From the IMG/VR virus record IMGVR_UViG_3300022188_000009: a stretch of 64,000 bases of DNA; one strand, 5' to 3'. The stretch is from a virus. Taxonomy: Duplodnaviria > Heunggongvirae > Uroviricota > Caudoviricetes. Below, piece after piece: positions 33,815-59,511 of this stretch. The translations under genes were made by a program, and so were the position numbers. The notes under the pieces were generated by a model, which saw only the letters and a list, made by a program, of their open reading frames with translations, was not told the DNA's origin and ran no database searches. Every line of letters begins with the position of its first letter. Within the stretch, counting starts at the first letter, position 1.

Positions 33815-34738
33815 ATGGAAAAGTGTTTCACAATTGGATGTGATCCTGAATTCTTTCTTCGCGAAAAACAAAGCGGAAAATTAATTTCAGCTATTCCACA
33901 CATTAAAGGTACCAAAACAGAACCACAATTATTGCCAAAGGGAGGTAATATCCAACATGATAATGTTGCTGTAGAAATTGCAACAGATCCAGCAAAATCT
34001 ATGGAAATGTTTATACAAAATATCAAAATGACTTTGTCAGAAGCAGTAAGAACTTTACCTGCAGATACAGAGATTATTGCGATACCTTCAGCGAATTTTG
34101 ATAAAGACCAGCTTGAGCATCCAGAAGCACAGGTATTCGGCTGTGATCCTGATTATGATGCTTGGGAAATTCGTGAAAATGAAAAACCACATGCAGGAGA
34201 TAATACTTTTAGATCTTGTGGTGCCCATATCCATCTTGGTACTGACGGAAAAGATGAAAATTCTTTCCTACTTGATTTTGAAGGTAAGCTGACCACTGTA
34301 AAAATTATGGATTGTGTACATGGAATTATTTCTACTGTACTTGATTCCGGTAAAGAAGCTATCGACCGTCGTAAATTATACGGTAAACCTGGGGCTCATA
34401 GGCCAAAGGAATATGGCGTAGAATATCGAGTATTATCCAATTACTGGTTAAAAAGTCCAGTAACTGTATCAATGATGTACCATTTGTCAAAAGATGTATT
34501 GACTATTGTACGTGAAGGTAAAGCTGAAGAATTAATCAATGCAATGGGTGAAAGTCAGGTAAAGGCTACTATTGAGGACGGTAATGCAGATGATGCCATG
34601 AAGATGATTGAAACAAACCTATTACCCATCCTCAGTGAAGACTCAGTTTATTATTTTAATGAAGTTTTGGCAAAAATTAAAGCAAACGATATGAATTTCC
34701 ACATGGAGTGGGAACTATACAAGGAGGCAGTCGCATGA
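33815..34738 (+). CDS. Carboxylate-amine ligase of the GCS2 / glutamine-synthetase-like (amidoligase) family, copy 1
   Basis: The N-terminal TIGCDPEFFLRE matches the GCS2 lGvEeEfflvd motif. CGAHIHLGT matches the GCS2 HvHvgv motif. RBS aaggtaa. Confidence 0.6.
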   Translation: MEKCFTIGCDPEFFLREKQSGKLISAIPHIKGTKTEPQLLPKGGNIQHDNVAVEIATDPAKSMEMFIQNIKMTLSEAVRTLPADTEIIAIPSANFDKDQLEHPEAQVFGCDPDYDAWEIRENEKPHAGDNTFRSCGAHIHLGTDGKDENSFLLDFEGKLTTVKIMDCVHGIISTVLDSGKEAIDRRKLYGKPGAHRPKEYGVEYRVLSNYWLKSPVTVSMMYHLSKDVLTIVREGKAEELINAMGESQVKATIEDGNADDAMKMIETNLLPILSEDSVYYFNEVLAKIKANDMNFHMEWELYKEAVA

Positions 34739-35502
34739 AAATTGGTATACCGGTTTCTTTCAGTAACACACAGTATTATATTAACCAGGCCTATGTAAAA
34801 TATGTAGCTGATGCTGGCTATGAGCCAGTATTGCTTTCTCCGGAGTCATCAATAAAGACAGCTGTTAGCCTCATTGACGGTCTTATAATGCCCGGAGGTA
34901 TTGATGTTGATCCTATATACTATGGATATGACAACTTTTCATCTTATGCAGTTGACCCGCTAAAGGATGAATTTGAGCGGGAATTGTTTCATTCCGCCCG
35001 TGAAGCTAAATTGCCTATACTTGGTATTTGTCGTGGTTTCCAACTTATTATATATGAGTATATGGAGCACGATAACAACCTAATTGAGTTCATGGAGTTT
35101 AAACCACATATTTCTGGGCATAACCAGGTTGATGGCCAAAGATTACCACGTACTATTTCCCAGCACTTTGTTGATTATAACCCATCTACTCTTTATAATG
35201 CAAGCAGTACCAAAGCAGACTCAATGCCCGTAAATAGTATGCATCATCAATGCTTGGTTGTTGATTTTAAACGCAATGGGATTATCGGAATTCGTAATTT
35301 TCGTATGGGGGCTTGGACTACCCGTGGTATAAAGGTTAAAACAGTAAAAGACAGTAATCCAATGGTATGTGAAGCATTTCGTATAAGTAAATGGGGTGCA
35401 CCGATTTTGGCTGTACAGTGGCATCCTGAAGAAATAAAGGATTACGAGTTACTTCACCAATTCTTTGGTAATGTTAAAGCTGATACTATGGAGACTACGT
35501 AA
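34735..35502 (+). CDS. Class-I glutamine amidotransferase-like protein (peptidase C26 / gamma-glutamyl hydrolase PuuD-like), copy 1
   Basis: MKIGIPV...YVKYVADAGYEPVLL...DGLIMPGGIDVDP...LPILGICRGFQLI...HHQ...WHPE matches the C26 family, with a Cys-His-Glu catalytic triad. RBS aaggagg. Confidence 0.7.
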   Translation: MKIGIPVSFSNTQYYINQAYVKYVADAGYEPVLLSPESSIKTAVSLIDGLIMPGGIDVDPIYYGYDNFSSYAVDPLKDEFERELFHSAREAKLPILGICRGFQLIIYEYMEHDNNLIEFMEFKPHISGHNQVDGQRLPRTISQHFVDYNPSTLYNASSTKADSMPVNSMHHQCLVVDFKRNGIIGIRNFRMGAWTTRGIKVKTVKDSNPMVCEAFRISKWGAPILAVQWHPEEIKDYELLHQFFGNVKADTMETT

Positions 35503-35726
35503 TGTCATTCAGCATAGAAGTTATTTTCGATGATGATACTAAATTAACCACAGGATATAGGTTAAAGGACTTAATGGATGTTATTAAAAAATCTCCTTTA
35601 TACGAAAAAAGGTGTATCATGCCTGTAATCCCGTGGTTAATTGATTTAGGTATTGATTACGTTGGTTCTGGTTCACATAATAAGAGCATTAAACGTATCA
35701 ATATAGAGGAAAAGGTGGTAATATGA
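35502..35726 (+). CDS. Hypothetical small protein
   Basis: Its start and stop overlap the neighbouring genes. Confidence 0.35.
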   Translation: MSFSIEVIFDDDTKLTTGYRLKDLMDVIKKSPLYEKRCIMPVIPWLIDLGIDYVGSGSHNKSIKRINIEEKVVI

Positions 35727-37435
35727 TTAATCAAGTAGATATTGGTTATTTAAAAGAAATTGAAAACGTAAACTGGCTTTCTGAGGTAATAAGTGAGCGG
35801 TTCGATAATGCACTTGACATGTTAATTGACAACTCTATAATTTATGGTGGGGCTGTAAGGGATGTACTTGCGGATAAACCACTTGAAGGGGATCTTGACA
35901 TAGCAGTATTGCCAGAAAATTTTCAAATGATTTCAAAAACTTTTGCTGAAAATCCAAGATGGATAGCATATGCCCCTAGTCCAGGAAAATCACTTGGAGA
36001 TTCCGGTAAAATAGCCAGAGAACTCGCTCCAATGGGTAATATATCATCGTTTGTTAACATGAATAATGTTGTAGTACAACTCATTACATCAAACGATTTA
36101 AATAAAGATCGTATGCAGGCCGTTATGCACCCAGCACGCATGGTTGATATAGTGTGTTGTGGAGTTATAATGCTTAATGATGGGCGTGTGTTTGAAACCG
36201 TACCTGGTGCCCATAAAGACTGTATAGATGGGCTCCTTAGGCTAAACGAATCTTCAGATACTATGTATCTGGATGCTATACCTGCTAGAGTTAAAAAATT
36301 AGTTGCCCGCGGTTGGAAAAATCAGATTAATGTTGAAAAAGCAGTAGCAGAAATTAAATTGAAACGTGAACGTAGTAAAAAACCTCGTAAAAAAAGTGGA
36401 TGGGTCGGAAATAACCAATTTAAATGTCCAGATAAAATTGAGTATGAGATTTTTATGTACAATAAAACCTTAAAACTAGCAATTAATGGACATAAACGAG
36501 AAATTAAAAATCTGTATGAGCTGGGAGATAGCTACACAATATCTTCTCACGTCAACAATATTTGTCGAATTTGTAGACTTAACGCACGTATAATTAAATC
36601 ACCGCTTGGTCAAATATATATCGAATGTGCTGACAGGATAACAACTTCCAGTATTATCGCCAAATTGGATAAATATCGAAGAAAAAGAAAAACTTCTAAA
36701 AGAGCTCTTAGTAAACAATCAGACTATAGCCTTTTTGGCCCTTCTTCTGATGCTAAAAAAGTACATTATAAAGCAACATCTAAACAGTATGAGAATAGTG
36801 GTACACTTACAGGAAGATCAAGCGGAGGAAGAATTGCATCAGGTAGTGTAACAGGTCCTACAAGTGAGGTTATAAGTGAGCCAATAGAAGAAGACTTAGA
36901 AAAACCAATAGCTTATCGAAAAGACACTGTTAAAGTTAAATTTAGAGATTATAACGATCTTCCTGAAAATAAGAAACACGTAATAGCTACAGAAATTAGA
37001 GAAATAAGAGGTGAATTTGAAGCACTCGCTAAATTGGGACAAAAAGCAACTACAGACCACTTACTTGCTAAATTAAAGCCGAGAAAAGTCGTAACCGAGG
37101 AGCATACAGTCGATGTAGTAGAAAAACCTTCCGAAGTTAGTTTTCAAAACAGTACTGATGTAGAAGTATTTAAAAAATACATGACAGCCAGTGAAATTGA
37201 AGATTTAAAAAGAGGTTTGGAAACACTGCCTAAGAAAAAAAAGCTTAAGTGGGTACCACTTTCTAAATTAGACAATGTTACAAGCGAATCACTTTCTAAA
37301 GCAAATAAAAATCCGTGCTTAGAACAATCATTCGCTGAAAATGAGTGGAAAACAGCCCCTATAAAGAAAAAAAATACCATTTTTGATGAATTATTACTTC
37401 AAACCAAAAAGGAGGAGATAAACTCTAATGACTAA
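35723..37435 (+). CDS. Nucleotidyltransferase with a PolyA-pol/CCA-type head domain and a long, basic, low-complexity C-terminal extension
   Basis: NSIIYGGAVRDVLADKPLEGDLDIAV matches the GGxVRD...DxD motif of the class II tRNA nucleotidyltransferase and poly(A) polymerase family. Confidence 0.5.
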   Translation: MINQVDIGYLKEIENVNWLSEVISERFDNALDMLIDNSIIYGGAVRDVLADKPLEGDLDIAVLPENFQMISKTFAENPRWIAYAPSPGKSLGDSGKIARELAPMGNISSFVNMNNVVVQLITSNDLNKDRMQAVMHPARMVDIVCCGVIMLNDGRVFETVPGAHKDCIDGLLRLNESSDTMYLDAIPARVKKLVARGWKNQINVEKAVAEIKLKRERSKKPRKKSGWVGNNQFKCPDKIEYEIFMYNKTLKLAINGHKREIKNLYELGDSYTISSHVNNICRICRLNARIIKSPLGQIYIECADRITTSSIIAKLDKYRRKRKTSKRALSKQSDYSLFGPSSDAKKVHYKATSKQYENSGTLTGRSSGGRIASGSVTGPTSEVISEPIEEDLEKPIAYRKDTVKVKFRDYNDLPENKKHVIATEIREIRGEFEALAKLGQKATTDHLLAKLKPRKVVTEEHTVDVVEKPSEVSFQNSTDVEVFKKYMTASEIEDLKRGLETLPKKKKLKWVPLSKLDNVTSESLSKANKNPCLEQSFAENEWKTAPIKKKNTIFDELLLQTKKEEINSND

Positions 37436-37841
37436 CGAAAAGACTGATTTCTTTTTCGTCTACGGTACCCTTAAAGAAGGTGGCCATTTTGCAACCGATC
37501 TTGACCCTTTCCGTATTCGTTCTGAAAAGGCTGAACTTGATGGGTTTGAATTATTTAACTTAGGTTGGTTCCCTGGTATAAAAGAAGGAGACAGTAAAGT
37601 TTATGGAGAAGTCCATGAATATAAAAACTTAGGTTCAGTTCAACAGCGTCTTGATAATATTGAAGGGTATAATGAGAGTGACGAAAAGAACAGCTTATAT
37701 CTCAGGCGTCGTAAGACTGTAAATTTGGGTGCCGGTAAAGGAAAGATTGAAGCCAATGTGTACATATTTAATCAAAACGTACCGTCTGACGCAAAAAAGA
37801 TTGAATCTGGCGACTGGGATTTAGAAAAATACAGTAATTAA
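37428..37841 (+). CDS. AIG2/GGCT-like gamma-glutamylcyclotransferase-fold protein
   Basis: FFFVYGTLKEGG matches the YGTLKxG signature. RBS aaggagg. Confidence 0.65.
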   Translation: MTNEKTDFFFVYGTLKEGGHFATDLDPFRIRSEKAELDGFELFNLGWFPGIKEGDSKVYGEVHEYKNLGSVQQRLDNIEGYNESDEKNSLYLRRRKTVNLGAGKGKIEANVYIFNQNVPSDAKKIESGDWDLEKYSN

Positions 37842-37907
37842 TTGAAGTAGATATCTTGATTATTACAAAATATAAAATATTTTTAATGAAAAAGGAATAA
37901 AATAAAT

Positions 37908-38183
37908 ATGAAAATTAAAGAAAATTTAAACATGTTGGGGTTGTCTGTAGTAGATAAAGTTACAGGGTTTAAAGGTATTGTTTCATCAATGAGTTTTGAT
38001 TTATATGGATGTGTACAGGGCCTGGTTACTCCATCTATGAAAGAAGATGGAAAATGTCCGGACAATCTATGGCTTGATGTTGATAGATTACGAATAGTTT
38101 GCAGAGAGCCTGTCATGAAACGGCCTGATTTTGAGCTCAGTTCAGCCCCTAAAGGCCCTGCAATGAAACCAGTTAAATTTTAA
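37908..38183 (+). CDS. Hypothetical protein
   Basis: RBS aaaaggaataaa. Confidence 0.4.
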   Translation: MKIKENLNMLGLSVVDKVTGFKGIVSSMSFDLYGCVQGLVTPSMKEDGKCPDNLWLDVDRLRIVCREPVMKRPDFELSSAPKGPAMKPVKF

Positions 38184-38202
38184 TAGTTCAGAAAGGAAAA
38201 AT

Positions 38203-38523
38203 ATGAAAATCAACGAGATTACAATTAATCCACAAATGACAGCTACTGGAGACCCTTCACGGTTTCGAGTAAATGAAGCAATTGATGTTAATGGGCAGCC
38301 TGGGCATACAGTCAAAAAGATTACATATAATCCAGTTACACGTTTATTCAACAAAGGCCTGGAAGTCGGAAATAGCTGTTATACTGTCTATTTTAATGAT
38401 ATTCCTGAACGCCGTATAATCATGGATAATATAGTTACCTCAATTGAGGCAGTAAAAGACGATAACAAGAAAGATAACAACAATGACGCAGCCAGTGAAG
38501 CTGGTGTAGCATTACCGACATAG
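38203..38523 (+). CDS. Hypothetical protein
   Basis: RBS aaaggaaaaat. Confidence 0.4.
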   Translation: MKINEITINPQMTATGDPSRFRVNEAIDVNGQPGHTVKKITYNPVTRLFNKGLEVGNSCYTVYFNDIPERRIIMDNIVTSIEAVKDDNKKDNNNDAASEAGVALPT

Positions 38524-38531
38524 GAGGCCAA

Positions 38532-39254
38532 ATGGCAGATCGTATTTTAGTGGTTAATGGAGCAAGTTATGCGAGAGCTATAGATGGATTGGGGGACCCA
38601 ACTTCAAGGGTTTCTCAATTTATGGAAAGTCCTAAGGATTTCAAGCTTGTATTGTTTACTGGAGGGGCTGATGTTGATCCAAGATTTTATGGAGATACTA
38701 GCCCTAAAAGACTTTGTCAAGCTAACCCTGAACGAGATATATTTGAAATTTCTATCTTCAAAAAGGCTAAAAAAGCAGAAGTTTTAATGACTGGTATATG
38801 CCGAGGACTACAATTTCTTAATGTAATGAATGGTGGTAAAATGATCCATCATTTAGAGAATCATGGTTTTGGAACACATGATATGATTACTGATTGTGGA
38901 GATGTCATACCTGTTAATTCTTTACATCATCAAATGATTATTCCTGGTATGGATTCTATAGTTACAGGATGGACAGAATCGCTTTCTAAATTACATATAG
39001 GCCAAGACGATGAAGAAATTAACTGGCCGGGCGTAAATTATGAAGCAGCAATATACACAAACACAAAGTGCTTCGGCGTACAATACCATCCTGAGATGCT
39101 GAATAATGACAGCGAAGGTTACCAATATTATTATGATATGGTACACCGTGCTCTAACTATGGATTGGAATGACTTCGTCGAGCCTCACCTAATAAAGGCT
39201 AAAGATGGAAAATCTTCTAAAATATCTCAATCTAATTCTTGTATTACCTGGTAA
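38532..39254 (+). CDS. Class-I glutamine amidotransferase-like protein (peptidase C26-like), copy 2
   Basis: LFTGGADVDPRFYG...LMTGICRGLQFLNVMNGG...SLHHQ...QYHPE. RBS taggaggcc. Confidence 0.65.
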   Translation: MADRILVVNGASYARAIDGLGDPTSRVSQFMESPKDFKLVLFTGGADVDPRFYGDTSPKRLCQANPERDIFEISIFKKAKKAEVLMTGICRGLQFLNVMNGGKMIHHLENHGFGTHDMITDCGDVIPVNSLHHQMIIPGMDSIVTGWTESLSKLHIGQDDEEINWPGVNYEAAIYTNTKCFGVQYHPEMLNNDSEGYQYYYDMVHRALTMDWNDFVEPHLIKAKDGKSSKISQSNSCITW

Positions 39255-39675
39255 TCGTATATTACTTAAACGTAATATAAGTTCCGTATCTAAAACTTGG
39301 CAATGGTCAGCTACAGAGGAATCTTATTTAACAGAATCTATGGATGCTGCTATGGAAGCAAACAGACTCCTACGTAACAATTATAATATAATACCGCCTA
39401 TTGATACTACAGAAGACTTTGTAATCATAAAACATGTACCACCGATTAAATCTTTAGCAGGAAAATTTATTATACCACTTATCGCAAAAATAAATATACA
39501 TATGAATTTTCAGGTAGACAAAACTATCCAATTTAGGGCTGTACGATTTGATGACTTACTAGACGATATTATGGCGAACTCTATTTATCAAAAAACAGGA
39601 GATTTTCCTTTACATACGCCTGTTTTGGTACATACGTTACAAACTTGTCATAATAGGAGGATTCTTAATCAATGA
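39205..39675 (+). CDS. Hypothetical protein of uncertain start
   Basis: The track ORF overlaps the upstream gene by 50 nt. The alternative start MDAAMEANRLL lies at 39343. Confidence 0.3.
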   Translation: MENLLKYLNLILVLPGNRILLKRNISSVSKTWQWSATEESYLTESMDAAMEANRLLRNNYNIIPPIDTTEDFVIIKHVPPIKSLAGKFIIPLIAKINIHMNFQVDKTIQFRAVRFDDLLDDIMANSIYQKTGDFPLHTPVLVHTLQTCHNRRILNQ

Positions 39676-51936: not shown

Positions 51937-51945
51937 GAGGTGCTT

Positions 51946-52767
51946 ATGTGTGCTATTTTTGGAGTAGGATTTCAACGAGGTTGTAAAATATGTAATAATG
52001 AGATGGTACGGGAGATTATCCGTAATTTATTTCTTGAAAATATGGTAAGGGGCCGGACAGCTTCTGGCCTCGCCTATGTTTCAGGTAAAGAAATTCAAGT
52101 AATTAAGAAGAATACTGCTGCTTGTGATTTTATTCAGTTACCTGACTATAAAAAATCAAATCTTACATATTTAAAAATGTCGAATTCTGAAGATTCTATA
52201 AATTCAGAACATCGACCTGTTTCGGTACTTGGACATTGCAGATTAAAAACGAAAGGGACAGAACTTAATAATGTCAACAATCACCCAATTATAAGAGATA
52301 ATATAGTTGGAGTGCATAACGGTATGATTAGTAATGATGACTACTTATTTGACCATTATTCAGATAAATTCAAGCGTAACGGAAAAGTCGATAGTGAGAT
52401 TATATTTGCATTAATTGAGCATTATTCTGGCAATAACGGGACAATAGTTGAAGCCATTCAGAAAGCAAATCAAGAGATCTACGGAGGATTTGCCTGTGCC
52501 ATGGTACATAGATTTCAACCATACATTGTGTGGTTATTTAGAAACAGCAATCCATGTTCTATTTTTCATTACAAAGATAGTGGCCTTGTAATCTGGTCAT
52601 CAATGCCACAGTTTATAAGGTCGGCAACAAAAGGATATACTTTAGGGGAACCAGAAGAAATTGAATTTCCTGCAGAGACTGGAATTGCAATTGATCTATA
52701 TCAGAATAAATTTTACAGGTTCAAATTAAAGGACCAAGGAAAAGAAACTAATGCAGGAGTTCACTAA
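51946..52767 (+). CDS. Class-II (Ntn) glutamine amidotransferase, copy 1
   Basis: N-terminal MCAIFG, whose Cys would be exposed after Met removal. Also RGRTASGLA, HCRLKTKG...NNHP and VDSEII. RBS agaggtg. Confidence 0.6.
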   Translation: MCAIFGVGFQRGCKICNNEMVREIIRNLFLENMVRGRTASGLAYVSGKEIQVIKKNTAACDFIQLPDYKKSNLTYLKMSNSEDSINSEHRPVSVLGHCRLKTKGTELNNVNNHPIIRDNIVGVHNGMISNDDYLFDHYSDKFKRNGKVDSEIIFALIEHYSGNNGTIVEAIQKANQEIYGGFACAMVHRFQPYIVWLFRNSNPCSIFHYKDSGLVIWSSMPQFIRSATKGYTLGEPEEIEFPAETGIAIDLYQNKFYRFKLKDQGKETNAGVH

Positions 52768-53734
52768 ATATTTAATGGGGGTTATGGAACAACCAAAGTT
52801 ACTTGAAGAAAAATCCCCATCACCAACTGTTTGTATAGGACAAATGCTTTATGAACCAGGTATGCCTATTCCACTAATGTCACCTGTTATAATTGATACT
52901 AACTATCAAGAAAAATCGAGTTACACCCTTCAAATTAGTGAGTCTAACAGAGTGTTTGTGAAAGTAAAAACATATTTTCCGCCTAATAGTAATTTTAACC
53001 CGATTAATACAATAGTAACAAATGTTAATAAAGTTAGTGTAACAGAGCCCAAACAATTACTTGACAACCATTGTGTTAAAGATATCGATATATTTAAAAA
53101 AGAAAATATAGGTAAGATTGCAGACTATGTTAAGGAACACGGGGTAATCACTTTTAGAATGGAAAACCCCAATACGGCTATAAATTTTATGAGCACCTGT
53201 TTAAAAAGTGTAAAAAGTGATTATAGATATTCCTGTTTCATAAAACGGTTTTGTGTGGGAAATAGACACCCTAGACTTTCATGTATTGATGATACTTTGA
53301 TCTTATTTGTTAGTTTTTTCGACTTGCCTTATGCAATTCCTGTATATAATAAGAAAAAAGCTGATGGTATGGGAGTACGCATCGGCATGTACTGGCCAAA
53401 ATCTACAAAAAAAATGGGTAAGTTGTGTGAGGTTGACTCATTGTACTTTGCAGTATCTATGCACCCTGATAACTTGTTGCACATTGATGGGCAAAAAATA
53501 AATAAACCTGGATTTATTTGTAATGATTATATAGATAATTTCTGTAATACATTGAATAACGAGATTAAACGACGTAAAGATTTACCAAGGCTTATTGAAG
53601 AGGCTAAACAAAATAAGAAAAAAGAAGAAGGAGAACCAAGTAAATTTACAGATGTGTATTTAAGTACAACAAATTTAGGTAGTTCAGCTACTTCTTATAC
53701 GTATACAACTAGTAGTAATACATCAACTTATTAA
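52751..53734 (+). CDS. Hypothetical protein with a Ser/Thr-rich C-terminus
   Basis: Lies between the two class-II GATase genes. Confidence 0.45.
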   Translation: MQEFTKYLMGVMEQPKLLEEKSPSPTVCIGQMLYEPGMPIPLMSPVIIDTNYQEKSSYTLQISESNRVFVKVKTYFPPNSNFNPINTIVTNVNKVSVTEPKQLLDNHCVKDIDIFKKENIGKIADYVKEHGVITFRMENPNTAINFMSTCLKSVKSDYRYSCFIKRFCVGNRHPRLSCIDDTLILFVSFFDLPYAIPVYNKKKADGMGVRIGMYWPKSTKKMGKLCEVDSLYFAVSMHPDNLLHIDGQKINKPGFICNDYIDNFCNTLNNEIKRRKDLPRLIEEAKQNKKKEEGEPSKFTDVYLSTTNLGSSATSYTYTTSSNTSTY

Positions 53735-53756
53735 AATAAAGGTTAGGAGGTAACCC

Positions 53757-55763
53757 ATGTGTGGAGTTGTAAGTGCATTAGCATACGGTGAGTTTGAGAC
53801 AAATAGAGAGGAAAAGACTCGACAAGAGTCCATTATTTTCCTTGTTTCTGAATTACTCCAACTCACGCAATCACGAGGCAAAGACGCCACAGGTATTGCA
53901 ACTATGTTCGCAAATTGTGACTATATGGGGCTGAAGATGGGTGTTTCGGCTCAAGAGTTTGTTGGACGATTTGGTGGAACGGAGAAGGATTATGACGGTT
54001 ATTTGGATATATGGCGGAAGAAAAAACATCCAGCTAAGATTGTTATTGGACACTGTCGTAAACCATCGGTAGGAGGCAACGCCGGTGCAGACGACAATAA
54101 TAACAATCACCCAATTAAAGTAGGTGATATTATTGGAGTACATAACGGTACATTAGATAACCATGAAAACATATTCAAAAATTTGGATTGTACTCCTGAA
54201 TCTAACGTGGATAGTGAAGCTATCTTCAGGCTGCTACACCATTTTACTGATAATGGTACAAAACCTTTCACAACTGAAAGTATACTTGAGACCTGTAAAC
54301 GTATGGGTGGTACTTACTCATGTTTAACATTTAGTGGTAATAACCCATATCAAATGGCCGCATTTCGCGATGGTCGGCCTCTGGAAGCATGTATAATACG
54401 TCCACTCAAATTATTACTTATCGCAAGTGATAAGGATTTTCTGAAAGCAGCAGTCTTCCGTTATAACAAAATGGCTCATCTATATCAGACTGGGGCTGTT
54501 AAATTTCTATCATTAAAGAAAGACGATATAGACCTTGAGACGTTAAAAGATGACTGTATGTATCTTTTTGATGTGCAGGATGAAATAAATTCAAAAACAC
54601 AGATTAAAGATCTGTATATTTCTGAAAAGGTACCACGTGCAGATAAAATTTGGAAAAAATCCGGTGGATCTACAACTATGTGGCATCGTAATAACCAGAA
54701 TCGTAATACAGTGGTAAAAAAAACAACAGTGACAACATCCAAACCGGACAACCAGTCTGGGACTCATGGAAAAGAAAGTACAACTGGGGATAATAAAACA
54801 AAACGGTTGGGTATGGTTTGGAATCGAAGTAATTATAAATATGAATCCATTCATGATGTGGATAAAGCGGATAAACATGGAAGTACAGAAATTGATATAG
54901 ATAATGGGGAAATAATTGATATTTCTAATAATGTAATAATTCAAGAAGGCGAAAAAAAAATAGACAAATCGATCTTACAAGTAGAAAATGATATTACACA
55001 TCCTCTTGAAGAGTCAGATAATCCTGTAGATAATCTTATTTCTGACCCAGCTAAAATTAATGAAATTGCTATTTCTCAAATTGAGGAGATACAGAATAAA
55101 ACTAACTCTTCAGACACAAACAACACCTCTGAGGATGTTAATTTACCCAAAAAAGCCCTTCTACTTGATTATGTAAAGCAACATAAGAAAATCGAGATAG
55201 ATGCATCGACTTACCCTGATGTTGTAGAAAAGGCCCAAAAAGCTACAAAAGAAGAAGAAACCTTCAGCAGCAACGACGAGCTTGCTGATGCTATTGAAGT
55301 AACAAATGTAAATATTATGAAAAATATGTCTACATACTCTTTAGCTAATCGGATCAAGGCGTTCTTCTTTAGAAAAGGCTGGTATGCTGGGTATATTACA
55401 CGCATGAAAGAAGAAGAGAGTGTAATGGTTGGGGGTGATTACTCACGTAAAATGTTGATAAGATCTCGTAATAAAGCTCTTAATGCTCAGAAAACCATTA
55501 AAATGATGAAAATAATGGTAAAGATTTACGATAATATAACTGGACAATGCTTGCTTACGCCTACTTATGGCAACGTTTTTGGCAAACAACAGTCCCATAT
55601 CATCCAGGATTGTAAAATTAATCGAGCAGTAACTGAAATTTTTGATAAAAATGAACATATCAGACCCAACTCTGTGCTGAATCTATTTAGTGAAGGAGAT
55701 ATGAAAAATAGTTCATTCTTAAAACGTATTACATCTGCGATATCACACAAATGCAGTAATTAG
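53757..55763 (+). CDS. Class-II (Ntn) glutamine amidotransferase, copy 2, with an approximately 440-aa C-terminal extension
   Basis: N-terminal MCGVVSA. Also ATGIATMF, HCRKPSVGGN...NNHP and VDSEAIF. RBS ggaggtaa. Confidence 0.6.
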   Translation: MCGVVSALAYGEFETNREEKTRQESIIFLVSELLQLTQSRGKDATGIATMFANCDYMGLKMGVSAQEFVGRFGGTEKDYDGYLDIWRKKKHPAKIVIGHCRKPSVGGNAGADDNNNNHPIKVGDIIGVHNGTLDNHENIFKNLDCTPESNVDSEAIFRLLHHFTDNGTKPFTTESILETCKRMGGTYSCLTFSGNNPYQMAAFRDGRPLEACIIRPLKLLLIASDKDFLKAAVFRYNKMAHLYQTGAVKFLSLKKDDIDLETLKDDCMYLFDVQDEINSKTQIKDLYISEKVPRADKIWKKSGGSTTMWHRNNQNRNTVVKKTTVTTSKPDNQSGTHGKESTTGDNKTKRLGMVWNRSNYKYESIHDVDKADKHGSTEIDIDNGEIIDISNNVIIQEGEKKIDKSILQVENDITHPLEESDNPVDNLISDPAKINEIAISQIEEIQNKTNSSDTNNTSEDVNLPKKALLLDYVKQHKKIEIDASTYPDVVEKAQKATKEEETFSSNDELADAIEVTNVNIMKNMSTYSLANRIKAFFFRKGWYAGYITRMKEEESVMVGGDYSRKMLIRSRNKALNAQKTIKMMKIMVKIYDNITGQCLLTPTYGNVFGKQQSHIIQDCKINRAVTEIFDKNEHIRPNSVLNLFSEGDMKNSSFLKRITSAISHKCSN

Positions 55764-55776
55764 GAGGATATAGTTT

Positions 55777-57069
55777 ATGGCACGCGAAAAGTTAATTATA
55801 GTCCAATCTGCAAGTATGGATAGTAATAAAAAGAAAGATAGGAATGAACACAGTCTTATTCGTATGAGTAAAGTTACCCGTAATACTATGGACTTCGATA
55901 ATAGTGTAGAAGTGTATCCTGTAACTAAAAGTACTGAAAAAAGAATGAAAGGAGCAATGCTTCTGGACATTTTTCAAGCTTTTTCAACTGATATTAAAAA
56001 GCTTCGTGCTGAAGGATTCACTGATACTGAGCTCAACAACGTTGGATTTGTAACTACCAAAACATTCAACAAGATTAACGGTGTTACTAAAGAAAGTAGT
56101 GGAAATATATGGGTAACTGATGATATCGCTGATACTATTATTGGTGCAGATCCTGAATTCCTACTATTCGATAATAATGGTGAAGTTATTCGTGCGAACA
56201 ACGTACTTGGCTATCACGGCCCTATTGGATGTGATGGTGCAATGGCTGAAGTTCGTCCTATGCCTGCCATTCAACCGGAAGAATTGGTTGAAAATATGGA
56301 AAAATTGTTTAAAACTAAGGAATTAGTAGAAGCAATTGAGCCGTATAACTGGATGGCTGGGTGTTATTATAAAGATAGTGCTCGTGATTACCCACTTGGT
56401 GGCCATATTCATATTGGTAATCCAATAAAAGTGGCCAATATGGATAGTTCAATACGAAGAAGATTTTTCACGTCCTTCAATAAAATTTTGGATGAACTAC
56501 TGGCTGTGCCAATGATCAAAATTGACGGTAGTTCTCTTGGTCGTGCTCGACGAACAGAGTGCTCTATGGGAAAATATGGGTATTTTGGAGAGTTTAGAGT
56601 ATGTAATGGTCGACTGGAATATAGAACCTTAAGTGGGCTGTGGATGATGCACCCAACATTGGCTATAATGGTTCTAGGCACAGCTAAAGCTATTATTGAT
56701 GAAGTATTTCGGCATGTAGCAGATAAAGAGTACAAACCTACCTATACATGTCCTTCAAAGTTCAATGATACCAATGTGTGGAAAAAAGATTTTGATTTAT
56801 GGGCTCAAATTCCCTTATGTAAAGATCTTGGCTGTACAAAATCTTCTGATAAAATGATTGAACTATTGCATAATTCATCAGCAACCAAGATTACTGTTCC
56901 TTATTTAAAAAGTTGGTATGGAAGAATGAAAAAATTATCGACTTACAAACAGTATGGTAAATATATTGACGGGCTATATGAAATATTGAAGAATAGTACT
57001 AAAACTTTTAACAATTATGATAAGAGAATACAGTCTAATTGGTTAGAAGACAAAAAATTCTTAGATTAA
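55777..57069 (+). CDS. Carboxylate-amine ligase (GCS2/GS-like amidoligase), copy 3
   Basis: Carries IGADPEFLLFD and LGGHIHIGNP. RBS aggagg. Confidence 0.55.
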   Translation: MAREKLIIVQSASMDSNKKKDRNEHSLIRMSKVTRNTMDFDNSVEVYPVTKSTEKRMKGAMLLDIFQAFSTDIKKLRAEGFTDTELNNVGFVTTKTFNKINGVTKESSGNIWVTDDIADTIIGADPEFLLFDNNGEVIRANNVLGYHGPIGCDGAMAEVRPMPAIQPEELVENMEKLFKTKELVEAIEPYNWMAGCYYKDSARDYPLGGHIHIGNPIKVANMDSSIRRRFFTSFNKILDELLAVPMIKIDGSSLGRARRTECSMGKYGYFGEFRVCNGRLEYRTLSGLWMMHPTLAIMVLGTAKAIIDEVFRHVADKEYKPTYTCPSKFNDTNVWKKDFDLWAQIPLCKDLGCTKSSDKMIELLHNSSATKITVPYLKSWYGRMKKLSTYKQYGKYIDGLYEILKNSTKTFNNYDKRIQSNWLEDKKFLD

Positions 57070-57090
57070 TAAAAGGATTAAATAAAACAA

Positions 57091-57891
57091 ATGAAAGAAA
57101 TTAAAATAGATTTTATTGATGAATATTCTCCAGCAAATCTTTACTCTACTAAAGATATATATTTTTCATGGTTAACTGCCCCCAAAAAAAATGTACTTTA
57201 TCAAATTACAAAGTGGCATAGTTGCCGAGAAACGTTTGTTGGAGAATTAAATAAACAGTTCGATGAAAAAAGAAAATGGCCCTATAAATATGAAATCAAC
57301 ACTACACATACAAGGTTTGCTGCTACACATAAATACATTAATAATATGCACATTAACCATTTTGAAAAAACGTGTGCTAACAACCTTAGATGTGCAAAAC
57401 ATGCTAAACGGCTTCTGAATTTATTCGAAAAATATCTTGGTTGGGGACTAACTACAATATATAAATGTAATAATGATAACTTTACCAAGCACAGAATTGA
57501 TATGTTTGTAGTATATGGTTCAGCAAAGTGGTTAAGATCCCCACAACTTATGTCATTATATTTATTAATCATTCGACTTTCAAAAAATGAGTATTTTCAA
57601 ACACTTAAAAATATCAATGATATAAAAAAATTCAGTAGTAATATTAAAAATAATGATTCTCAGGATATAATTTTTTGGAAAAGAATCAATCCATATCTTT
57701 TCAGAATATTAGATAATGTAAATGATTTATTTTTCCATCAATCTATAAAAAACTCACATACAGAGCAGTCAGGAACATCTGGTATAAATAATTTGGTAAA
57801 TGGATACAGTAATAAAGTAACAAACGGTGTATTTTGTAAAATTAAAAATGATATTGACAATAAGATGCCTGATTCTACGCTAAAAAGATAA
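57091..57891 (+). CDS. Member 5 of the paralogous family
   Basis: Carries YFSWLTAPKKNVLYQITKWHSCRETF and WLRSPQLMSLYLLIIRL. Confidence 0.55.
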   Translation: MKEIKIDFIDEYSPANLYSTKDIYFSWLTAPKKNVLYQITKWHSCRETFVGELNKQFDEKRKWPYKYEINTTHTRFAATHKYINNMHINHFEKTCANNLRCAKHAKRLLNLFEKYLGWGLTTIYKCNNDNFTKHRIDMFVVYGSAKWLRSPQLMSLYLLIIRLSKNEYFQTLKNINDIKKFSSNIKNNDSQDIIFWKRINPYLFRILDNVNDLFFHQSIKNSHTEQSGTSGINNLVNGYSNKVTNGVFCKIKNDIDNKMPDSTLKR

Positions 57892-57945
57892 TTGCACCAG
57901 AAAAAAGTATCTTATAGTTTTTAAGAAATAAGGAGAAATGTAAAA

Positions 57946-59049
57946 ATGTCTATTGACAAAACAATTGAGAATGGTTATATTTGGTATAGTGGAGCGACAA
58001 ATACGACTGGGGAGAAGCTTGCTGTAGCTCTCGGCATGAAACACGGTAGAAAAAAACCAGTGATGTCAAACACGAGCTTATGCATTGGTTGGGGAGCAAA
58101 AATAAAAGAAGATATCGGGCTATCGGACAAAATGGTACTTAATCACCCAAATAAGATCAGAATAAATAGAAATAAATTACTTGCTCTTGAACTTATGAAG
58201 AAGAATGATGTATCAGTGGCCCCATTTTGTACAGATACAGGAACAGCAGCCATGAAGAAATCTGGAACAATGCTGCCGGTAATTGGCCGTACGAAATACC
58301 ACCAGGGCGGTAAAGGGTTTTGGAGCTGCCCTACTATGACTCATATAAAAGAGGCAAAGAATGCCGGAGCTGTGTACTTTCAAAACCTTATTGAAATTAA
58401 AGACGAGTTCAGGTTACATATTGTTGGTGATAAATGTATATATGCCGTAAAGAAAGTCAAGCGTACAGTTAAAGAGATGGAAGAAGCATACGTCAGGCAT
58501 GAAATGGAGCGTCAGAAACAATTGGCGGAAAAGAATAATGACCAGTTTGATGATGCAACTGCCAAACTATTTCTTAAACGGCAGGCTAAAAAGTTTGCAC
58601 ATGACGGTGCAGACATGATGATAAGGTCAAACAGACTTGGATGGAGATTCTCTCACATAAAGACACCTGGCAAGAATCTGGTTACAGAGTCTATTAAAGC
58701 ATGTAAAGCAATTGGCCTTGATTTTGGTGCCGTTGATTGTTGTATTGATGTAAATGATAAACCATTTATCATTGAAGTAAACACAGGCCCAGGTTTAGAA
58801 GAAACTCCGTTCAATGCGTGGGTTGAAGCTCTACGTGTTATGATTACTGACACTCTTAAACCGAAAAGTAAAGTTGGTAAACTCGTAGAGAAAGTTTCCG
58901 GTATTGTAAATGTTAAGAAACCGGCTACTAAGTCTTCCAAGAACAAGTTGGCTGACAAATTAGCATTGGCACAGGAAATGGTGGAAGCTGCAGATGAGGA
59001 GGAGATAACCGTACTTGATAGAGTATTCAGTAATATGTTTGGTAAATAA
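57946..59049 (+). CDS. ATP-grasp ligase (RimK / glutathione-synthetase-like)
   Basis: EFRLHIVGDKCIYAVKK and DFGAVDCCIDVNDKPFIIEVNTGPG match the ATP-grasp C-terminal D..E.N..PG metal-binding motif. RBS aaggag. Confidence 0.6.
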   Translation: MSIDKTIENGYIWYSGATNTTGEKLAVALGMKHGRKKPVMSNTSLCIGWGAKIKEDIGLSDKMVLNHPNKIRINRNKLLALELMKKNDVSVAPFCTDTGTAAMKKSGTMLPVIGRTKYHQGGKGFWSCPTMTHIKEAKNAGAVYFQNLIEIKDEFRLHIVGDKCIYAVKKVKRTVKEMEEAYVRHEMERQKQLAEKNNDQFDDATAKLFLKRQAKKFAHDGADMMIRSNRLGWRFSHIKTPGKNLVTESIKACKAIGLDFGAVDCCIDVNDKPFIIEVNTGPGLEETPFNAWVEALRVMITDTLKPKSKVGKLVEKVSGIVNVKKPATKSSKNKLADKLALAQEMVEAADEEEITVLDRVFSNMFGK

Positions 59050-59058
59050 GGAGATGCT

Positions 59059-59511
59059 ATGGTAGAGTTTTATGTTTCGTTATCAAATCATGACATAGCT
59101 CAACAGGTCACTACAATGGTTAATACGTATAATCGTTGGTATACGAAATTATCTACACAAGCATTACTGATAAGCTCAGCCAGCTACTTTACGGAAATAG
59201 AATGTAATAGAGTAGTTGGCTGTGCTTCATTTGTTCATGAGTATAACAATTATACAAAAATACAACATATTTGTGTGCTTCCATCTCACAGACAGAGAGG
59301 AATAGCACACAGATTATCAGAATTAGCAATTGCAAACTCAAAAACAGAATATGTATACATGACGATTCGTGAGGATAATATTTCAAGTATTAAACTTGCT
59401 AAATCTTTAAAATTTGTTTACATTAAAAAACATTGGTTTCGAGACCATTGGACCTTAACTTTTGGAAGGAGACGTGAACATGTTGGAAACAACTATACAG
59501 CAACAATGTAA
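59059..59511 (+). CDS. GNAT-family acyltransferase
   Basis: HICVLPSHRQRGIAHRL is GNAT motif A, (Q/R)xxGxG/A. RBS aaggag. Confidence 0.6.
   Translation: MVEFYVSLSNHDIAQQVTTMVNTYNRWYTKLSTQALLISSASYFTEIECNRVVGCASFVHEYNNYTKIQHICVLPSHRQRGIAHRLSELAIANSKTEYVYMTIREDNISSIKLAKSLKFVYIKKHWFRDHWTLTFGRRREHVGNNYTATM

What the first reader, a model, noticed from the sequence alone, without database searches (positions are those of the whole stretch)
33815..59511. Phage-borne constellation of amide-bond-forming and glutamine-handling enzymes (4 amidoligases, 2+2 amidotransferases, 2 GGCT-fold, ATP-grasp, GNAT)
Within about 26 kb there are three GCS2-type carboxylate-amine ligases and a fourth GS-like ligase. 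The three GCS2-type ligases (33815, 49098, 55777) carry the GxDPEF(F/L)L and GxH(I/L)HxG motifs; the GS-like ligase at 50248 carries GLEFEYN and has a Cys-rich insert. The cluster also holds two peptidase-C26-like class-I amidotransferases (34735, 38532), two Ntn class-II amidotransferases with N-terminal Met-Cys (51946, 53757), an AIG2/GGCT protein (37428) and an ATP-grasp/GNAT pair (57946-59511). A ChaC-like GGCT lies further upstream at 10398. Pfam-type gene neighbourhoods of 'Amidoligase_2' with a GATase-like thiol peptidase or an AIG2 cyclotransferase are known, but mostly as single three-gene cassettes. A quadruplicated ligase set with two kinds of amidotransferase, ATP-grasp and GNAT in one phage is far more elaborate. 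The cluster could build and trim gamma-glutamyl or peptide-like tags on virion or host proteins. Alternatively, by analogy with phage thymidine/cytosine hypermodification pathways that append amino acids or polyamines to hydroxymethyl-pyrimidines, it could decorate DNA bases. The DUF262-HNH nuclease at 8282 would fit a phage that protects its own DNA by hypermodification.
Basis: partly seen in the sequence, partly recalled or inferred. Interest (0 to 1): 0.9.

Follow-up and report, generated by a model that had tools for sequence, protein, structure and literature searches.

The report
Expanded phage amide-ligase gene set
A huge uncultivated phage carries a doubled, two-part version of an enzyme set already known from many small phages. 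The set makes and trims amide (gamma-glutamyl or peptide-like) bonds, what it acts on has never been tested, and the evidence here argues against DNA-base decoration.

Summary

The set is not a new kind of system. It is an expanded, split version of the phiEco32/RIO-1/LUZ24 'amidoligase' cassette, called a 'peptidoglycan modification' cassette in the literature. That cassette holds COOH-NH2_lig, Amidoligase_2, GATase II, ATP-grasp, GGCT and sometimes a class-I GATase-like hydrolase, next to replication genes. The short ligase occurs in 319 GenBank phages, essentially once per genome.

Here the canonical parts are divided between module A (33815-39254) and module B (49098-59511). Both are syntenic in an uncultivated clade of phages with contigs up to about 330 kb.

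New elements:
- a Pfam-less 562-aa ligase family (238 clusters) with 16 invariant Cys and a probable C-terminal winged helix;
- barrel-like N-domains on two ligases;
- a CCA/poly(A)-polymerase-like nucleotidyltransferase;
- a GNAT;
- a five-copy unannotated family.

The target is unknown. DNA hypermodification is disfavoured: no hydroxymethylase, kinase or TET was found, GCGC is totally avoided, an EcoRI-type methylase is present, and DNA of a cassette-bearing LUZ24-like phage is restriction-sensitive.

The parts
32027..32935 (+). 302-aa member of an unannotated paralog family associated with the cassette
   Evidence: Local HMM searches link 25345, 26143, 32027, 32935 and 57091 (E 1e-7 to 1e-21). 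The family HMM hits the 329-aa ORF between GATase II and DNA polymerase in podovirus MW202615 at E 1.2e-11. No Pfam hit.
32935..33783 (+). 282-aa member of the same paralog family, directly upstream of the module-A ligase
   Evidence: The ortholog in the 313 kb relative (L012 7236-8057) is 49% identical.
33815..34738 (+). Short COOH-NH2 ligase (PF14395), the LUZ24 gp16 type; module A
   Evidence: Pfam 1e-12. PHROG 3815 at 2e-62. 34% identity to LUZ24 gp16, E 3e-37. All invariant catalytic residues present.
34735..35502 (+). Peptidase_C26 / class-I GATase-fold hydrolase no. 1
   Evidence: Pfam 5e-32. GICRG and HPE triad motifs. Nearest NCBIfam models are gamma-Glu-GABA hydrolase and gamma-glutamyl-CDP-amidate hydrolase, far below their cut-offs.
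35502..35726 (+). 74-aa ORF in a conserved position between the C26 and nucleotidyltransferase genes
   Evidence: ORFs of similar size occupy the same position in L010 (90 aa) and L012 (78 aa). No family hit.
35723..37435 (+). 570-aa protein with an N-terminal class-II CCA-adding/poly(A)-polymerase-like nucleotidyltransferase domain, a second small alpha/beta domain and a variable low-complexity C-terminus
37428..37841 (+). GGACT/AIG2-type gamma-glutamyl(amine) cyclotransferase
   Evidence: Pfam 1e-20. YGTL and EGY motifs shared with LUZ24 gp22 and the MW202615 GGCT. Present in L012, absent in L010.
38203..38523 (+). 106-aa conserved small ORF preceding the second C26 gene
   Evidence: Homolog in L010 (31% identity). 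A 98-aa ORF sits at the same position in L012. No family hit.
38532..39254 (+). Peptidase_C26 / class-I GATase-fold hydrolase no. 2
   Evidence: Pfam 3e-21. Catalytic motifs intact. 36% identity to the class-I GATase-like protein of Vibrio phage 1.262.O, E 2e-25.
49098..50261 (+). Long COOH-NH2 ligase with an N-terminal barrel-like domain of about 100 aa; module B
   Evidence: Pfam 6e-18. The N-terminal extension profile hits designed double-psi beta-barrel proteins (7du7, E 4.8e-6). Conserved in L001, L007 and L008.
50248..51936 (+). 562-aa carboxylate-amine ligase, a remote Amidoligase_2 relative, with a Cys-rich insert of about 90 aa (16 invariant Cys) and a probable C-terminal winged helix
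   Evidence: No Pfam hit in any of 37 members.
51946..52767 (+). Stand-alone Ntn (class-II) glutamine amidotransferase, 273 aa
   Evidence: Pfam GATase_6 at 1e-12. Met-Cys start and conserved catalytic motifs. GlmS-type by NCBIfam, below cut-off.
52751..53734 (+). 327-aa variable ORF of unknown function between the two amidotransferases
   Evidence: Homologs in L001 and L007 (about 30% identity), absent in L008. No family hit.
53757..55763 (+). Long Ntn amidotransferase, 668 aa: GATase II domain, low-complexity linker, conserved helical C-terminal domain of unknown function
   Evidence: Pfam 1e-7. PHROG 14519 at 6e-18. Domain layout from the four-sequence alignment. The C-terminal domain has no match.
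55777..57069 (+). Long COOH-NH2 ligase with the same N-terminal barrel-like domain
   Evidence: Pfam 3e-30. N-domain. 64% identical ortholog in L001.
57091..57891 (+). 266-aa member of the unannotated paralog family; variable, absent in L001, L007 and L008
57946..59049 (+). RimK-like ATP-grasp ligase
   Evidence: PHROG 2599 at 2e-26. Weak RimK matches in Pfam, NCBIfam and PDB. BLAST to LUZ24 gp21 at 3e-8.
59059..59511 (+). GNAT acyltransferase whose nearest model is RimI
   Evidence: Pfam Acetyltransf_1 at 9e-11. NCBIfam rimI at 3e-8, below cut-off. Always follows the ATP-grasp gene in L001, L007 and L008. Not found in the small cassettes.

Best explanation
The region holds two syntenic modules that together form an enlarged, split version of the known phage 'amidoligase' cassette of the phiEco32/RIO-1/LUZ24 type.

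Shown here:
- The canonical parts are divided between the modules. Module A has the gp16-type COOH-NH2 ligase and GGACT, plus two C26 hydrolases. Module B has the Amidoligase_2-like ligase, the Ntn amidotransferases and the RimK-like ATP-grasp, plus two extra COOH-NH2 ligases and a GNAT.
- All catalytic signatures are intact.
- None of the module enzymes has a signal peptide or membrane anchor.
- The genes sit in a tightly packed co-directional block with the phage RNA polymerase, helicase, RuvB and sigma factor.

Inferred mechanism: this is a cytoplasmic, ATP-driven amide-bond pathway acting early or in mid infection.
- The four carboxylate-amine ligases and the ATP-grasp enzyme activate carboxylates as acyl-phosphates and couple them to amines.
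- The two Ntn amidotransferases supply ammonia from glutamine to convert carboxylates into amides.
- The GNAT caps an amine.
- The C26 hydrolases and GGACT remove gamma-glutamyl groups, for trimming, deprotection or recycling.

The two long ligases carry a barrel-like N-domain, and the 562-aa ligase carries a Cys-rich module and a winged helix. For that reason I think the acceptor is most likely a macromolecule or a macromolecule-bound precursor (a host or phage protein, or a peptidoglycan precursor) rather than DNA bases. The identity of the acceptor is not shown.
For: - Family and fold assignments.
- Catalytic residues.
- Orthology to the LUZ24 cassette: gp16 at 34% identity (3e-37), with gp19 and gp21 also matched.
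- The same parts recur next to replication genes in independent lineages: MW202615 (GGCT, ATP-grasp, COOH-NH2_lig, amidoligase, GATase II, then DNA polymerase) and Vibrio phage 1.262.O (class-I GATase-like, GATase II, COOH-NH2_lig, ATP-grasp-like).
- Short forms of the 562-aa ligase sit beside a GATase II (L017) and near a GGACT gene (L018).
- The literature describes the cassette and its position among transcription and replication genes.
- Both modules are syntenic across the huge-phage clade, with at least 12 contig lengths common to the homolog lists of both modules.
- Genes are packed with gaps of 66 nt or less and many overlaps.
- No module enzyme has a TM segment or signal peptide.
- Extra binding-type domains are present.
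Against: - No experiment exists for any member of this cassette family in the papers I could search.
- Substrates cannot be read from these folds.
- Synteny within one clade may be inherited gene order rather than functional coupling. The nucleotidyltransferase and the GNAT have no counterpart in the small cassettes.
- The barrel-like N-domain is supported by one repeat of about 45 residues matching designed proteins.
- The Cys-rich insert is modelled at low confidence (pLDDT about 55-65).
- Ten kb of unrelated genes, including the RNA polymerase, separate the two modules.
Confidence: 0.6

Rival explanations
1. Cell-wall editing, the hypothesis in the literature. The enzymes make or alter the unusual peptide linkages of peptidoglycan stem-peptide precursors in the cytoplasm, either to block superinfection or to prepare the wall for lysis. 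This is a special case of the best explanation with a named target.
For: Proposed for the homologous cassette in RIO-1-like, phiEco32-like and LUZ24-like phages. A soluble lytic transglycosylase gene lies just upstream at 30127-30837. From general knowledge, not tested here: stem-peptide amidation by a ligase plus a glutamine amidotransferase has precedent in MurT/GatD and in AsnB/LtsA-type enzymes.
Against: I found no experimental test. Nothing in the modules resembles Mur ligases or lipid II enzymes. The ATP-grasp/GNAT pair is closest to RimK and RimI, which modify ribosomal proteins. The winged-helix and barrel-like domains are not expected for a small soluble nucleotide-sugar-peptide substrate.
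Confidence: 0.2
2. DNA base hypermodification. The ligases and amidotransferases append amino-acid or polyamine-derived groups to hydroxymethyl-pyrimidines in phage DNA.
For: Pfam amidoligase and amidotransferase genes co-occur with 5-HMUDK and aGPT-Pplase genes in some viral contigs (Lee et al. 2021, PMC8989533). The modules lie among replication and transcription genes. The 562-aa ligase has a possible winged helix.
Against: No thymidylate-synthase-like hydroxymethylase, 5-HMUDK, aGPT-Pplase or TET/JBP was found among the window ORFs scanned. GCGC is completely absent (0 observed; shuffles give 38.6 +/- 5.7 counted on both strands), also in the close relatives, and an EcoRI-type methylase is encoded. 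So the DNA is defended by classical means. The LUZ24-like phage U17 carries the cassette, yet its DNA is sensitive to 11 of 16 restriction enzymes.
Confidence: 0.1
3. RNA- or translation-directed modification. The system acts on tRNA or RNA 3' ends, or on ribosomal proteins or translation factors, as part of a takeover of translation.
Against: All RimK, RimI and YcaO matches are far below the family cut-offs. The nucleotidyltransferase is absent from the small-phage cassettes, so it may be a neighbour rather than a component. No tRNA-binding body or tail domain is recognisable in it.
Confidence: 0.1
4. There is no single pathway. Modules A and B, and the ATP-grasp/GNAT pair, are separate auxiliary functions, for example gamma-glutamyl-amine or polyamine metabolism alongside a separate protein modifier, and they merely share an inherited gene order.
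For: Ten kb of unrelated genes separate the modules. GGACT, the 327-aa ORF and the 266-aa ORF come and go between relatives. Reduced layouts exist, such as ligase plus GATase II alone. The C26 proteins are nearest to catabolic gamma-glutamyl hydrolases.
Against: In small phages the same families form one contiguous cassette, and here those canonical parts are split between A and B. That is most simply explained if the two modules still work together.
Confidence: 0.15

Closest known systems
Phage 'amidoligase' or putative 'peptidoglycan modification' cassette of phiEco32, RIO-1, LUZ24, PaP3, tf, 7-11, PA11 and CW02 (Iyer et al. 2009; Hardies et al. 2013; as cited in PMC5498523, PMC6256558 and PMC11945000)
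   Same: Same families: COOH-NH2_lig PF14395 (34% identity to LUZ24 gp16), an Amidoligase_2-type second ligase, a GATase II, a RimK-like ATP-grasp, an AIG2/GGACT cyclotransferase and, in Vibrio phages, a class-I GATase-like protein. Same position among early or middle replication and transcription genes. Function likewise untested.
   Different: Here the set is split into two modules 10 kb apart and expanded: three COOH-NH2 ligases instead of one, two GATase II and two C26. The Amidoligase_2-like member has diverged beyond Pfam detection and has gained a 16-Cys insert and a winged helix. Two ligases have gained an N-terminal barrel-like domain. A GNAT, a CCA/PAP-like nucleotidyltransferase and several copies of an unannotated family are added. 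The hosts are uncultivated phages with contigs up to about 330 kb, not 45-90 kb podoviruses.
Carboxylate-amine ligase superfamily (YbdK/GCS2, glutamate-cysteine ligase, glutamine synthetase, PafA/Dop)
   Different: No sequence-level membership in any curated family. No Pup-like substrate gene was recognised. Substrates are unknown.
Gamma-glutamyl handling pathways: Puu (PuuA ligase / PuuD C26 hydrolase), Campylobacter gamma-glutamyl-CDP-amidate hydrolase, and (from general knowledge) butirosin BtrJ/BtrG gamma-glutamyl protecting-group chemistry
   Same: They combine an ATP-dependent gamma-glutamyl ligase with a C26 hydrolase or a GGCT-fold cyclotransferase that removes the gamma-glutamyl group again. 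The two C26 proteins score best against these hydrolases.
   Different: Scores are far below the equivalog cut-offs (about 31-37 bits against 250-266). The other pathway enzymes (oxidases, carrier proteins, kinases) are absent.
Phage thymidine hypermodification clusters (5-HMUDK, aGPT-Pplase, PLP and radical-SAM enzymes; Lee et al. 2021)
   Same: Some such clusters in viral contigs contain Pfam amidoligase and amidotransferase genes. They are located near replication genes.
   Different: None of the defining enzymes (hydroxymethylase or TET, 5-HMUDK, aGPT-Pplase) was detected in the window. The phage shows restriction-site avoidance and methylase protection instead.

Membership tests
Phage amidoligase ('peptidoglycan modification') cassette, phiEco32/RIO-1/LUZ24 type | COOH-NH2 ligase type 2 (PF14395) | tested here: met
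   Three copies. The short one is 34% identical to LUZ24 gp16, E 3e-37. Invariant residues are shared with the LUZ24, MW202615 and Vibrio 1.262.O ligases.
Phage amidoligase ('peptidoglycan modification') cassette, phiEco32/RIO-1/LUZ24 type | Second ligase of the Amidoligase_2 (PF12224) type | tested here: inconclusive
   The Pfam model does not detect the 562-aa protein or 36 relatives, and gives one weak hit among 21 diverse members. However, the fold is carboxylate-amine ligase, profile comparison to LUZ24 gp18 plus the MW202615 amidoligase gives 84% probability at E 7e-6 over the catalytic motifs, and the top BFVD matches are phage amidoligases, including those of tf and CW02. A remote relative, not a Pfam-level member.
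Phage amidoligase ('peptidoglycan modification') cassette, phiEco32/RIO-1/LUZ24 type | Class-II (Ntn) glutamine amidotransferase | tested here: met
   Two copies. Both BLAST to LUZ24 gp19 and to the MW202615 and Vibrio GATase II proteins. Both have the Met-Cys start.
Phage amidoligase ('peptidoglycan modification') cassette, phiEco32/RIO-1/LUZ24 type | RimK-like ATP-grasp ligase | tested here: met
   PHROG 2599 at 2e-26. BLAST to LUZ24 gp21 at 3e-8. Pfam RimK is just below its cut-off.
Phage amidoligase ('peptidoglycan modification') cassette, phiEco32/RIO-1/LUZ24 type | AIG2/GGACT-type gamma-glutamyl cyclotransferase | tested here: met
   Pfam GGACT at 1e-20. Aligns with LUZ24 gp22 and the MW202615 GGCT.
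Phage amidoligase ('peptidoglycan modification') cassette, phiEco32/RIO-1/LUZ24 type | One contiguous cassette of about 5-7 genes | tested here: not met
   The parts lie in two modules (33815-39254 and 49098-59511) separated by about 10 kb that includes the RNA polymerase and a helicase. Several families are duplicated.
Phage amidoligase ('peptidoglycan modification') cassette, phiEco32/RIO-1/LUZ24 type | Located among early or middle transcription and replication genes | tested here: met
   Flanked by Rnl1, RNA polymerase, helicase, RuvB, sigma factor and the CCA enzyme. Compare LUZ24, MW202615 and Vibrio 1.262.O.
Phage amidoligase ('peptidoglycan modification') cassette, phiEco32/RIO-1/LUZ24 type | Modifies peptidoglycan (the proposed function) | not testable with these tools
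   A hypothesis only in the literature.
Phage thymidine/cytosine hypermodification pathway | Source of 5-hydroxymethyl-pyrimidine (dUMP/dCMP hydroxymethylase or TET/JBP) | tested here: not met
   No such Pfam hit among about 70 window ORFs scanned. The test is limited to this 64 kb window and to Pfam sensitivity; the rest of the genome is unseen.
Phage thymidine/cytosine hypermodification pathway | 5-HMUDK kinase and aGPT-Pplase | tested here: not met
   Not detected in the window (same calls).
Phage thymidine/cytosine hypermodification pathway | DNA resistant to restriction | tested here: inconclusive
   Indirect evidence only: total GCGC avoidance and an EcoRI-type methylase imply restrictable DNA, and cassette-bearing phage U17 is cut by 11 of 16 enzymes. 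No DNA of this phage was analysed.
Pup ligase / depupylase (PafA/Dop) | PafA/Dop-like fold | tested here: met
Pup ligase / depupylase (PafA/Dop) | A small tag protein ending in Gly-Gly-Gln/Glu encoded nearby | tested here: not met
   The small ORFs in the modules end in ...EEKVVI...KPVKF and ...GVALPT. The unusual C-terminal tail of the 251-aa protein is not conserved.
ChaC / GGCT fold (ORF 10398-11024) | Match to a ChaC, GGCT or GGACT profile | tested here: not met
   No Pfam, PHROG, NCBIfam or PDB hit for the protein or its 27-sequence profile. None of 44 homologs carries a Pfam domain.
ChaC / GGCT fold (ORF 10398-11024) | YGSL motif plus a downstream catalytic Glu | tested here: inconclusive
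   GYGSL and E112 are invariant. hhalign to GGACT is co-linear and aligns these residues, but at 0.7% probability.
Class-II CCA-adding / poly(A) polymerase nucleotidyltransferases (570-aa protein) | Pol-beta signature GGxxRD...DxD plus a third carboxylate, and the head/neck fold | tested here: met
Class-II CCA-adding / poly(A) polymerase nucleotidyltransferases (570-aa protein) | tRNA- or RNA-binding body and tail domains | not tested
   Only residues 1-340 were modelled. The C-terminal part is variable and of low complexity.

The most novel reading that the evidence does not exclude
The enlarged set could be a reversible macromolecule-tagging machine. PafA/Dop-fold and COOH-NH2 ligases, equipped with a barrel-like substrate-recognition domain, a four-site Cys module and a winged helix, would attach gamma-glutamyl or short peptide tags, amidated by the Ntn amidotransferases and capped by the GNAT, to host or phage proteins or to nucleic-acid-bound targets during takeover. 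The C26 hydrolases and GGACT would act as erasers. That would make it a phage counterpart of pupylation or RimK-type tailing, and it would give the long-unexplained small-phage cassette a function.
Probability: 0.15. Interest if true: 0.8.

Novelty: new variant of a known kind. Interest (0 to 1): 0.45.

Why it matters
The core cassette occurs in hundreds of sequenced phages: 319 GenBank records for the short ligase alone, including therapy candidates of the LUZ24 and phiEco32 groups. Its function has been guessed at since 2009 and, as far as I could find, never tested.

Three results give concrete handles.
- A large uncultivated huge-phage clade keeps an expanded version of the cassette inside its replication/transcription backbone.
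- The ligases there have acquired extra binding-type domains.
- The DNA-modification reading is disfavoured, which narrows the search to protein, cell-wall-precursor or metabolite targets.

The work also defines a conserved ligase family with no Pfam model (238 clusters at 50% identity) and an unannotated cassette-associated family. The phage itself is uncultivated, so direct tests must be done in the small cultured carriers.

Tried and rejected
- Megablast and tblastn against GenBank phages found no close relative of the region or of the 562-aa protein.
- PDB sequence searches for the 562-aa, 570-aa and ChaC-like proteins found nothing.
- hhalign of the narrow 562-aa profile (A1) against single LUZ24 gp18, and against the COOH-NH2_lig alignment, was not significant. 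Only the broader profile A10 reached Amidoligase_2.
- I considered the acidic ...YSGYGYG tail of the 251-aa protein (59480-60217) as a possible ligase substrate. I rejected it because the tail is not conserved in three orthologs.
- I looked for the nucleotidyltransferase, the GNAT, the 327-aa protein and the C-terminal domain of the 668-aa protein in the LUZ24, MW202615 and Vibrio cassettes. None was found beyond borderline hits.
- Vibrio phage V07 (349 kb) looked like a second jumbo carrier. The record is flagged UNVERIFIED_ORG, and the region is a podovirus-type cassette next to a terminase gene, so I set it aside.
- Sigma-70 promoter and intrinsic-terminator scans were at chance level and give no operon boundaries.
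- Rfam found only the tRNA.
- Iyer et al. 2009 and Hardies et al. 2013 are not held in the library. Their content is cited second-hand.

Full report
**1. What is there.** The window is a co-directional, tightly packed, low-GC (about 33%) stretch. It comes from an 86.7 kb metagenomic contig, ENA ERZ27248007 k141_151775. It has no near relative among GenBank phages.

- Three COOH-NH2 ligases of Pfam PF14395 lie at 33815, 49098 and 55777.
- Two Peptidase_C26 proteins lie at 34735 and 38532.
- Two class-II (Ntn) amidotransferases lie at 51946 and 53757.
- A GGACT cyclotransferase lies at 37428 and a GNAT at 59059.
- A RimK-like ATP-grasp lies at 57946. It is weak in Pfam but scores 2e-26 against PHROG 2599.

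Only the upstream 'ChaC-like' ORF (10398-11024) stays unverified. It keeps an invariant GYGSL and a downstream Glu but reaches no profile.

**2. It is conserved, in two modules.** Related metagenomic contigs keep the same order at roughly 40-70% protein identity.

Module B runs helicase, COOH-NH2_lig, the 562-aa ligase, a short GATase II, a variable 327-aa ORF, a long GATase II, COOH-NH2_lig, a variable 266-aa ORF, ATP-grasp, GNAT, an ORF of about 250 aa, RuvB, sigma factor, CCA enzyme. This order holds in L001 (141 kb), L007 (313 kb) and L008 (305 kb).

Module A runs two paralogous unknowns, COOH-NH2_lig, C26, a small ORF, a 570-aa-type protein, GGACT, a small ORF, C26. It is conserved in L012, which is the same 313 kb contig as L007. 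It is also conserved in the more distant L010, which lacks GGACT.

At least twelve contig lengths are common to the homolog lists of the 562-aa protein and the 570-aa protein. The two modules therefore travel together, inside a backbone that also carries a fused beta/beta-prime RNA polymerase.

**3. It is a variant of a known cassette.** LUZ24 encodes gp16 (COOH-NH2_lig), gp18 (Amidoligase_2), gp19 (GATase II, 510 aa), gp21 (RimK-like) and gp22 (UPF0131/GGACT), immediately upstream of primase/helicase. gp16 is 34% identical to the module-A ligase (E 3e-37). gp19 and gp21 match the window's amidotransferases and ATP-grasp.

Two further lineages repeat the pattern. MW202615 has GGCT, ATP-grasp, COOH-NH2_lig, amidoligase and GATase II, followed by DNA polymerase. 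Vibrio phage 1.262.O has a class-I GATase-like protein (36% identical to the second C26, E 2e-25), GATase II, COOH-NH2_lig and an ATP-grasp-like protein, followed by primase/helicase.

The literature calls this a seven-gene 'peptidoglycan modification cassette'. It is reported as conserved in RIO-1, phiEco32, 7-11, PA11, tf, MR299-2, LUZ24, PaP3, CW02 and phiM6, and as lying among transcription and replication genes. The proposed role, blocking superinfection or preparing the wall for lysis, has not been tested.

The short ligase alone is found in 319 GenBank phage records at 321 places. It is therefore single-copy, and the carriers are mostly 44-90 kb podoviruses.

The 562-aa protein is the diverged counterpart of Amidoligase_2. 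A diverse family profile aligns to LUZ24 gp18 plus the MW202615 amidoligase at 84% probability (E 7e-6), over GxExE, DGSLxxGxE and RCxxHxH in the same order. Its best viral structure matches are phage 'amidoligases', including those of tf and CW02.

The canonical parts are divided between the modules: the gp16-type ligase and GGACT in A, and the Amidoligase_2-like ligase, GATase II and ATP-grasp in B. This is the best argument that A and B still serve one pathway.

**4. What is new in this clade.**
- (a) The copy numbers are higher: three COOH-NH2 ligases, two GATase II and two C26.
- (c) The two long COOH-NH2 ligases share an N-terminal extension of about 100 aa. Its profile matches designed double-psi beta-barrel proteins (7du7, E 4.8e-6). 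From my own knowledge, not checked here, those designs derive from the substrate-recognising N-domain of CDC48/VCP-type ATPases.
- (e) A GNAT always follows the ATP-grasp gene.
- (f) Five paralogs of an unannotated family of 250-300 aa lie in the window, three of them abutting ligase genes. The family HMM hits the ORF between GATase II and DNA polymerase in MW202615 at E 1.2e-11.

**5. How it probably works.**

Shown: all catalytic signatures are intact. None of the enzymes has a signal peptide or membrane anchor. Gene spacing is 66 nt or less, with many overlaps.

Inferred from the established chemistry of the folds:
- The ligases and the ATP-grasp enzyme form acyl-phosphates and couple carboxylates to amines.
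- The Ntn amidotransferases deliver ammonia from glutamine to turn carboxylates into amides.
- The GNAT acylates an amine.
- The C26 proteins and GGACT cleave gamma-glutamyl-amide bonds. The nearest NCBIfam models for C26 are gamma-Glu-GABA hydrolase and gamma-glutamyl-CDP-amidate hydrolase, far below their cut-offs.

The acceptor is not identified. The added binding-type domains lead me to favour a macromolecular or macromolecule-bound acceptor. Peptidoglycan precursor (the literature hypothesis) and protein are the leading candidates. The RimK/RimI-like pair and the many translation-related genes in the window point towards the translation apparatus as one option.

**6. Why DNA hypermodification is disfavoured.**
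- No hydroxymethylase, 5-HMUDK, aGPT-Pplase or TET/JBP was detected among about 70 scanned ORFs. The rest of the genome is unseen, and many ORFs have no annotation.
- GCGC is absent from all 64 kb. The Markov expectation is about 19 sites, and shuffles give 38.6 +/- 5.7 matches counted on both strands.
- GCGC is also absent from L001, L007 and L012, which in addition deplete GGCC. L008 and L010 do not avoid GCGC.
- A strong EcoRI-type adenine methylase (3e-133) is encoded, and GAATTC is not avoided.
- These are classical anti-restriction devices of a phage whose DNA can be cut.
- The LUZ24-like phage U17 carries the cassette, yet its DNA is sensitive to 11 of 16 restriction enzymes, the most of the four phages tested.
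- The only positive lead is that some viral contigs with thymidine-hypermodification genes also encode amidoligase and amidotransferase domains.

**7. Verdict.** It is an enlarged, rearranged member of a cassette family that is already described, though never functionally tested. The DNA-decoration alternative and the significance attached to the DUF262-HNH gene are not supported. I rate the novelty as a new variant of a known kind and the interest as moderate. The main value lies in the new ligase family, the added domains, and the narrowing of hypotheses for a widespread cassette.

Noticed in passing
window 1-64000; also L001, L007, L012: The tetranucleotide GCGC is completely absent. The window has 0 sites against about 19 expected from a Markov model, and shuffles give 38.6 +/- 5.7 matches counted on both strands. 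It is also absent from the closer relatives, which deplete GGCC as well, but not from the more distant L008 and L010. This suggests a host with an HhaI-like restriction system, and phage DNA that is restrictable at G/C-only sites.
   Followed up: partly
window 7248-9394: An EcoRI-type N6-adenine methylase (Pfam 3e-133) ends exactly where a GmrSD_N(DUF262)-HNH nuclease gene starts (a shared base at 8282). This looks like a phage-borne methylase-nuclease pair. GAATTC is not avoided (20 observed, 17 expected).
   Followed up: partly
window 42351-45776: A 1141-aa single polypeptide carries both RNA polymerase double-psi barrel signatures (Rpb2 domain 6, then Rpb1 domain 2). It looks like a fused beta/beta-prime-like RNA polymerase. 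It is conserved in the 305-313 kb relatives (1107-1160 aa), and a sigma-70 region-2 protein lies at 61196-62101.
   Followed up: partly
window 25345-26118, 26143-26907, 32027-32935, 32935-33783, 57091-57891: Five paralogs of an unannotated family of 250-300 aa share the motif W(L/M)xxPQL(M/L)SL...RL. The family HMM also hits a 329-aa ORF next to GATase II in podovirus MW202615 (E 1.2e-11) and further copies in L012. Function unknown.
   Followed up: partly
window 3037-3111, 3678-4727, 17181-17633, 17679-19043, 30859-32085, 62485-63927: There is a cluster of translation- and RNA-related genes. They are tRNA-Gln(UUG), an RlmN/Cfr-like radical-SAM protein (5e-10), peptide deformylase (3e-33), a YcaO (6e-48) nearest the McrA-thioamidation and S12-accessory types, T4 Rnl1-like RNA ligase and a CCA-adding enzyme with an HD domain.
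   Followed up: partly
L002 19196-21293 (source contig beyond the window end): A cold-shock-domain protein and a 539-aa protein with a faint TROVE (Ro60-like) hit follow the CCA enzyme. This extends the RNA-repair theme.
   Followed up: no
window 2312-2974, 5637-6095, 16063-17106, 26907-27467: Several ORFs have lipobox-like N-termini (...FGC, ...TAC, ...TGC). One of them is an SPFH/Band-7 protein. There is also an OmpA-family domain protein. These are possible envelope-directed phage proteins and hint at a Gram-negative host.
   Followed up: no
window 50400-50665 (residues about 53-138 of the 562-aa ligase): Sixteen invariant cysteines lie within about 90 residues, with three CxxC pairs. That is enough for four Cys4 metal sites, and Zn versus Fe-S is undecided. 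The region is modelled at low confidence. Short-form relatives lack the insert.
   Followed up: partly
L009 6635-8589 versus L008 12606-14549: In one near-identical relative the long amidotransferase gene is called as two ORFs (464 aa and 162 aa) instead of one of 647 aa. This could be a frameshift, an assembly error or a real split.
   Followed up: no
L015 (MT135025.1 Vibrio phage V07, 293517-314149): The 349 kb record is flagged UNVERIFIED_ORG. It contains a podovirus-type amidoligase cassette, tRNAs and a terminase gene in one stretch, which suggests a chimeric assembly of two phages.
   Followed up: no
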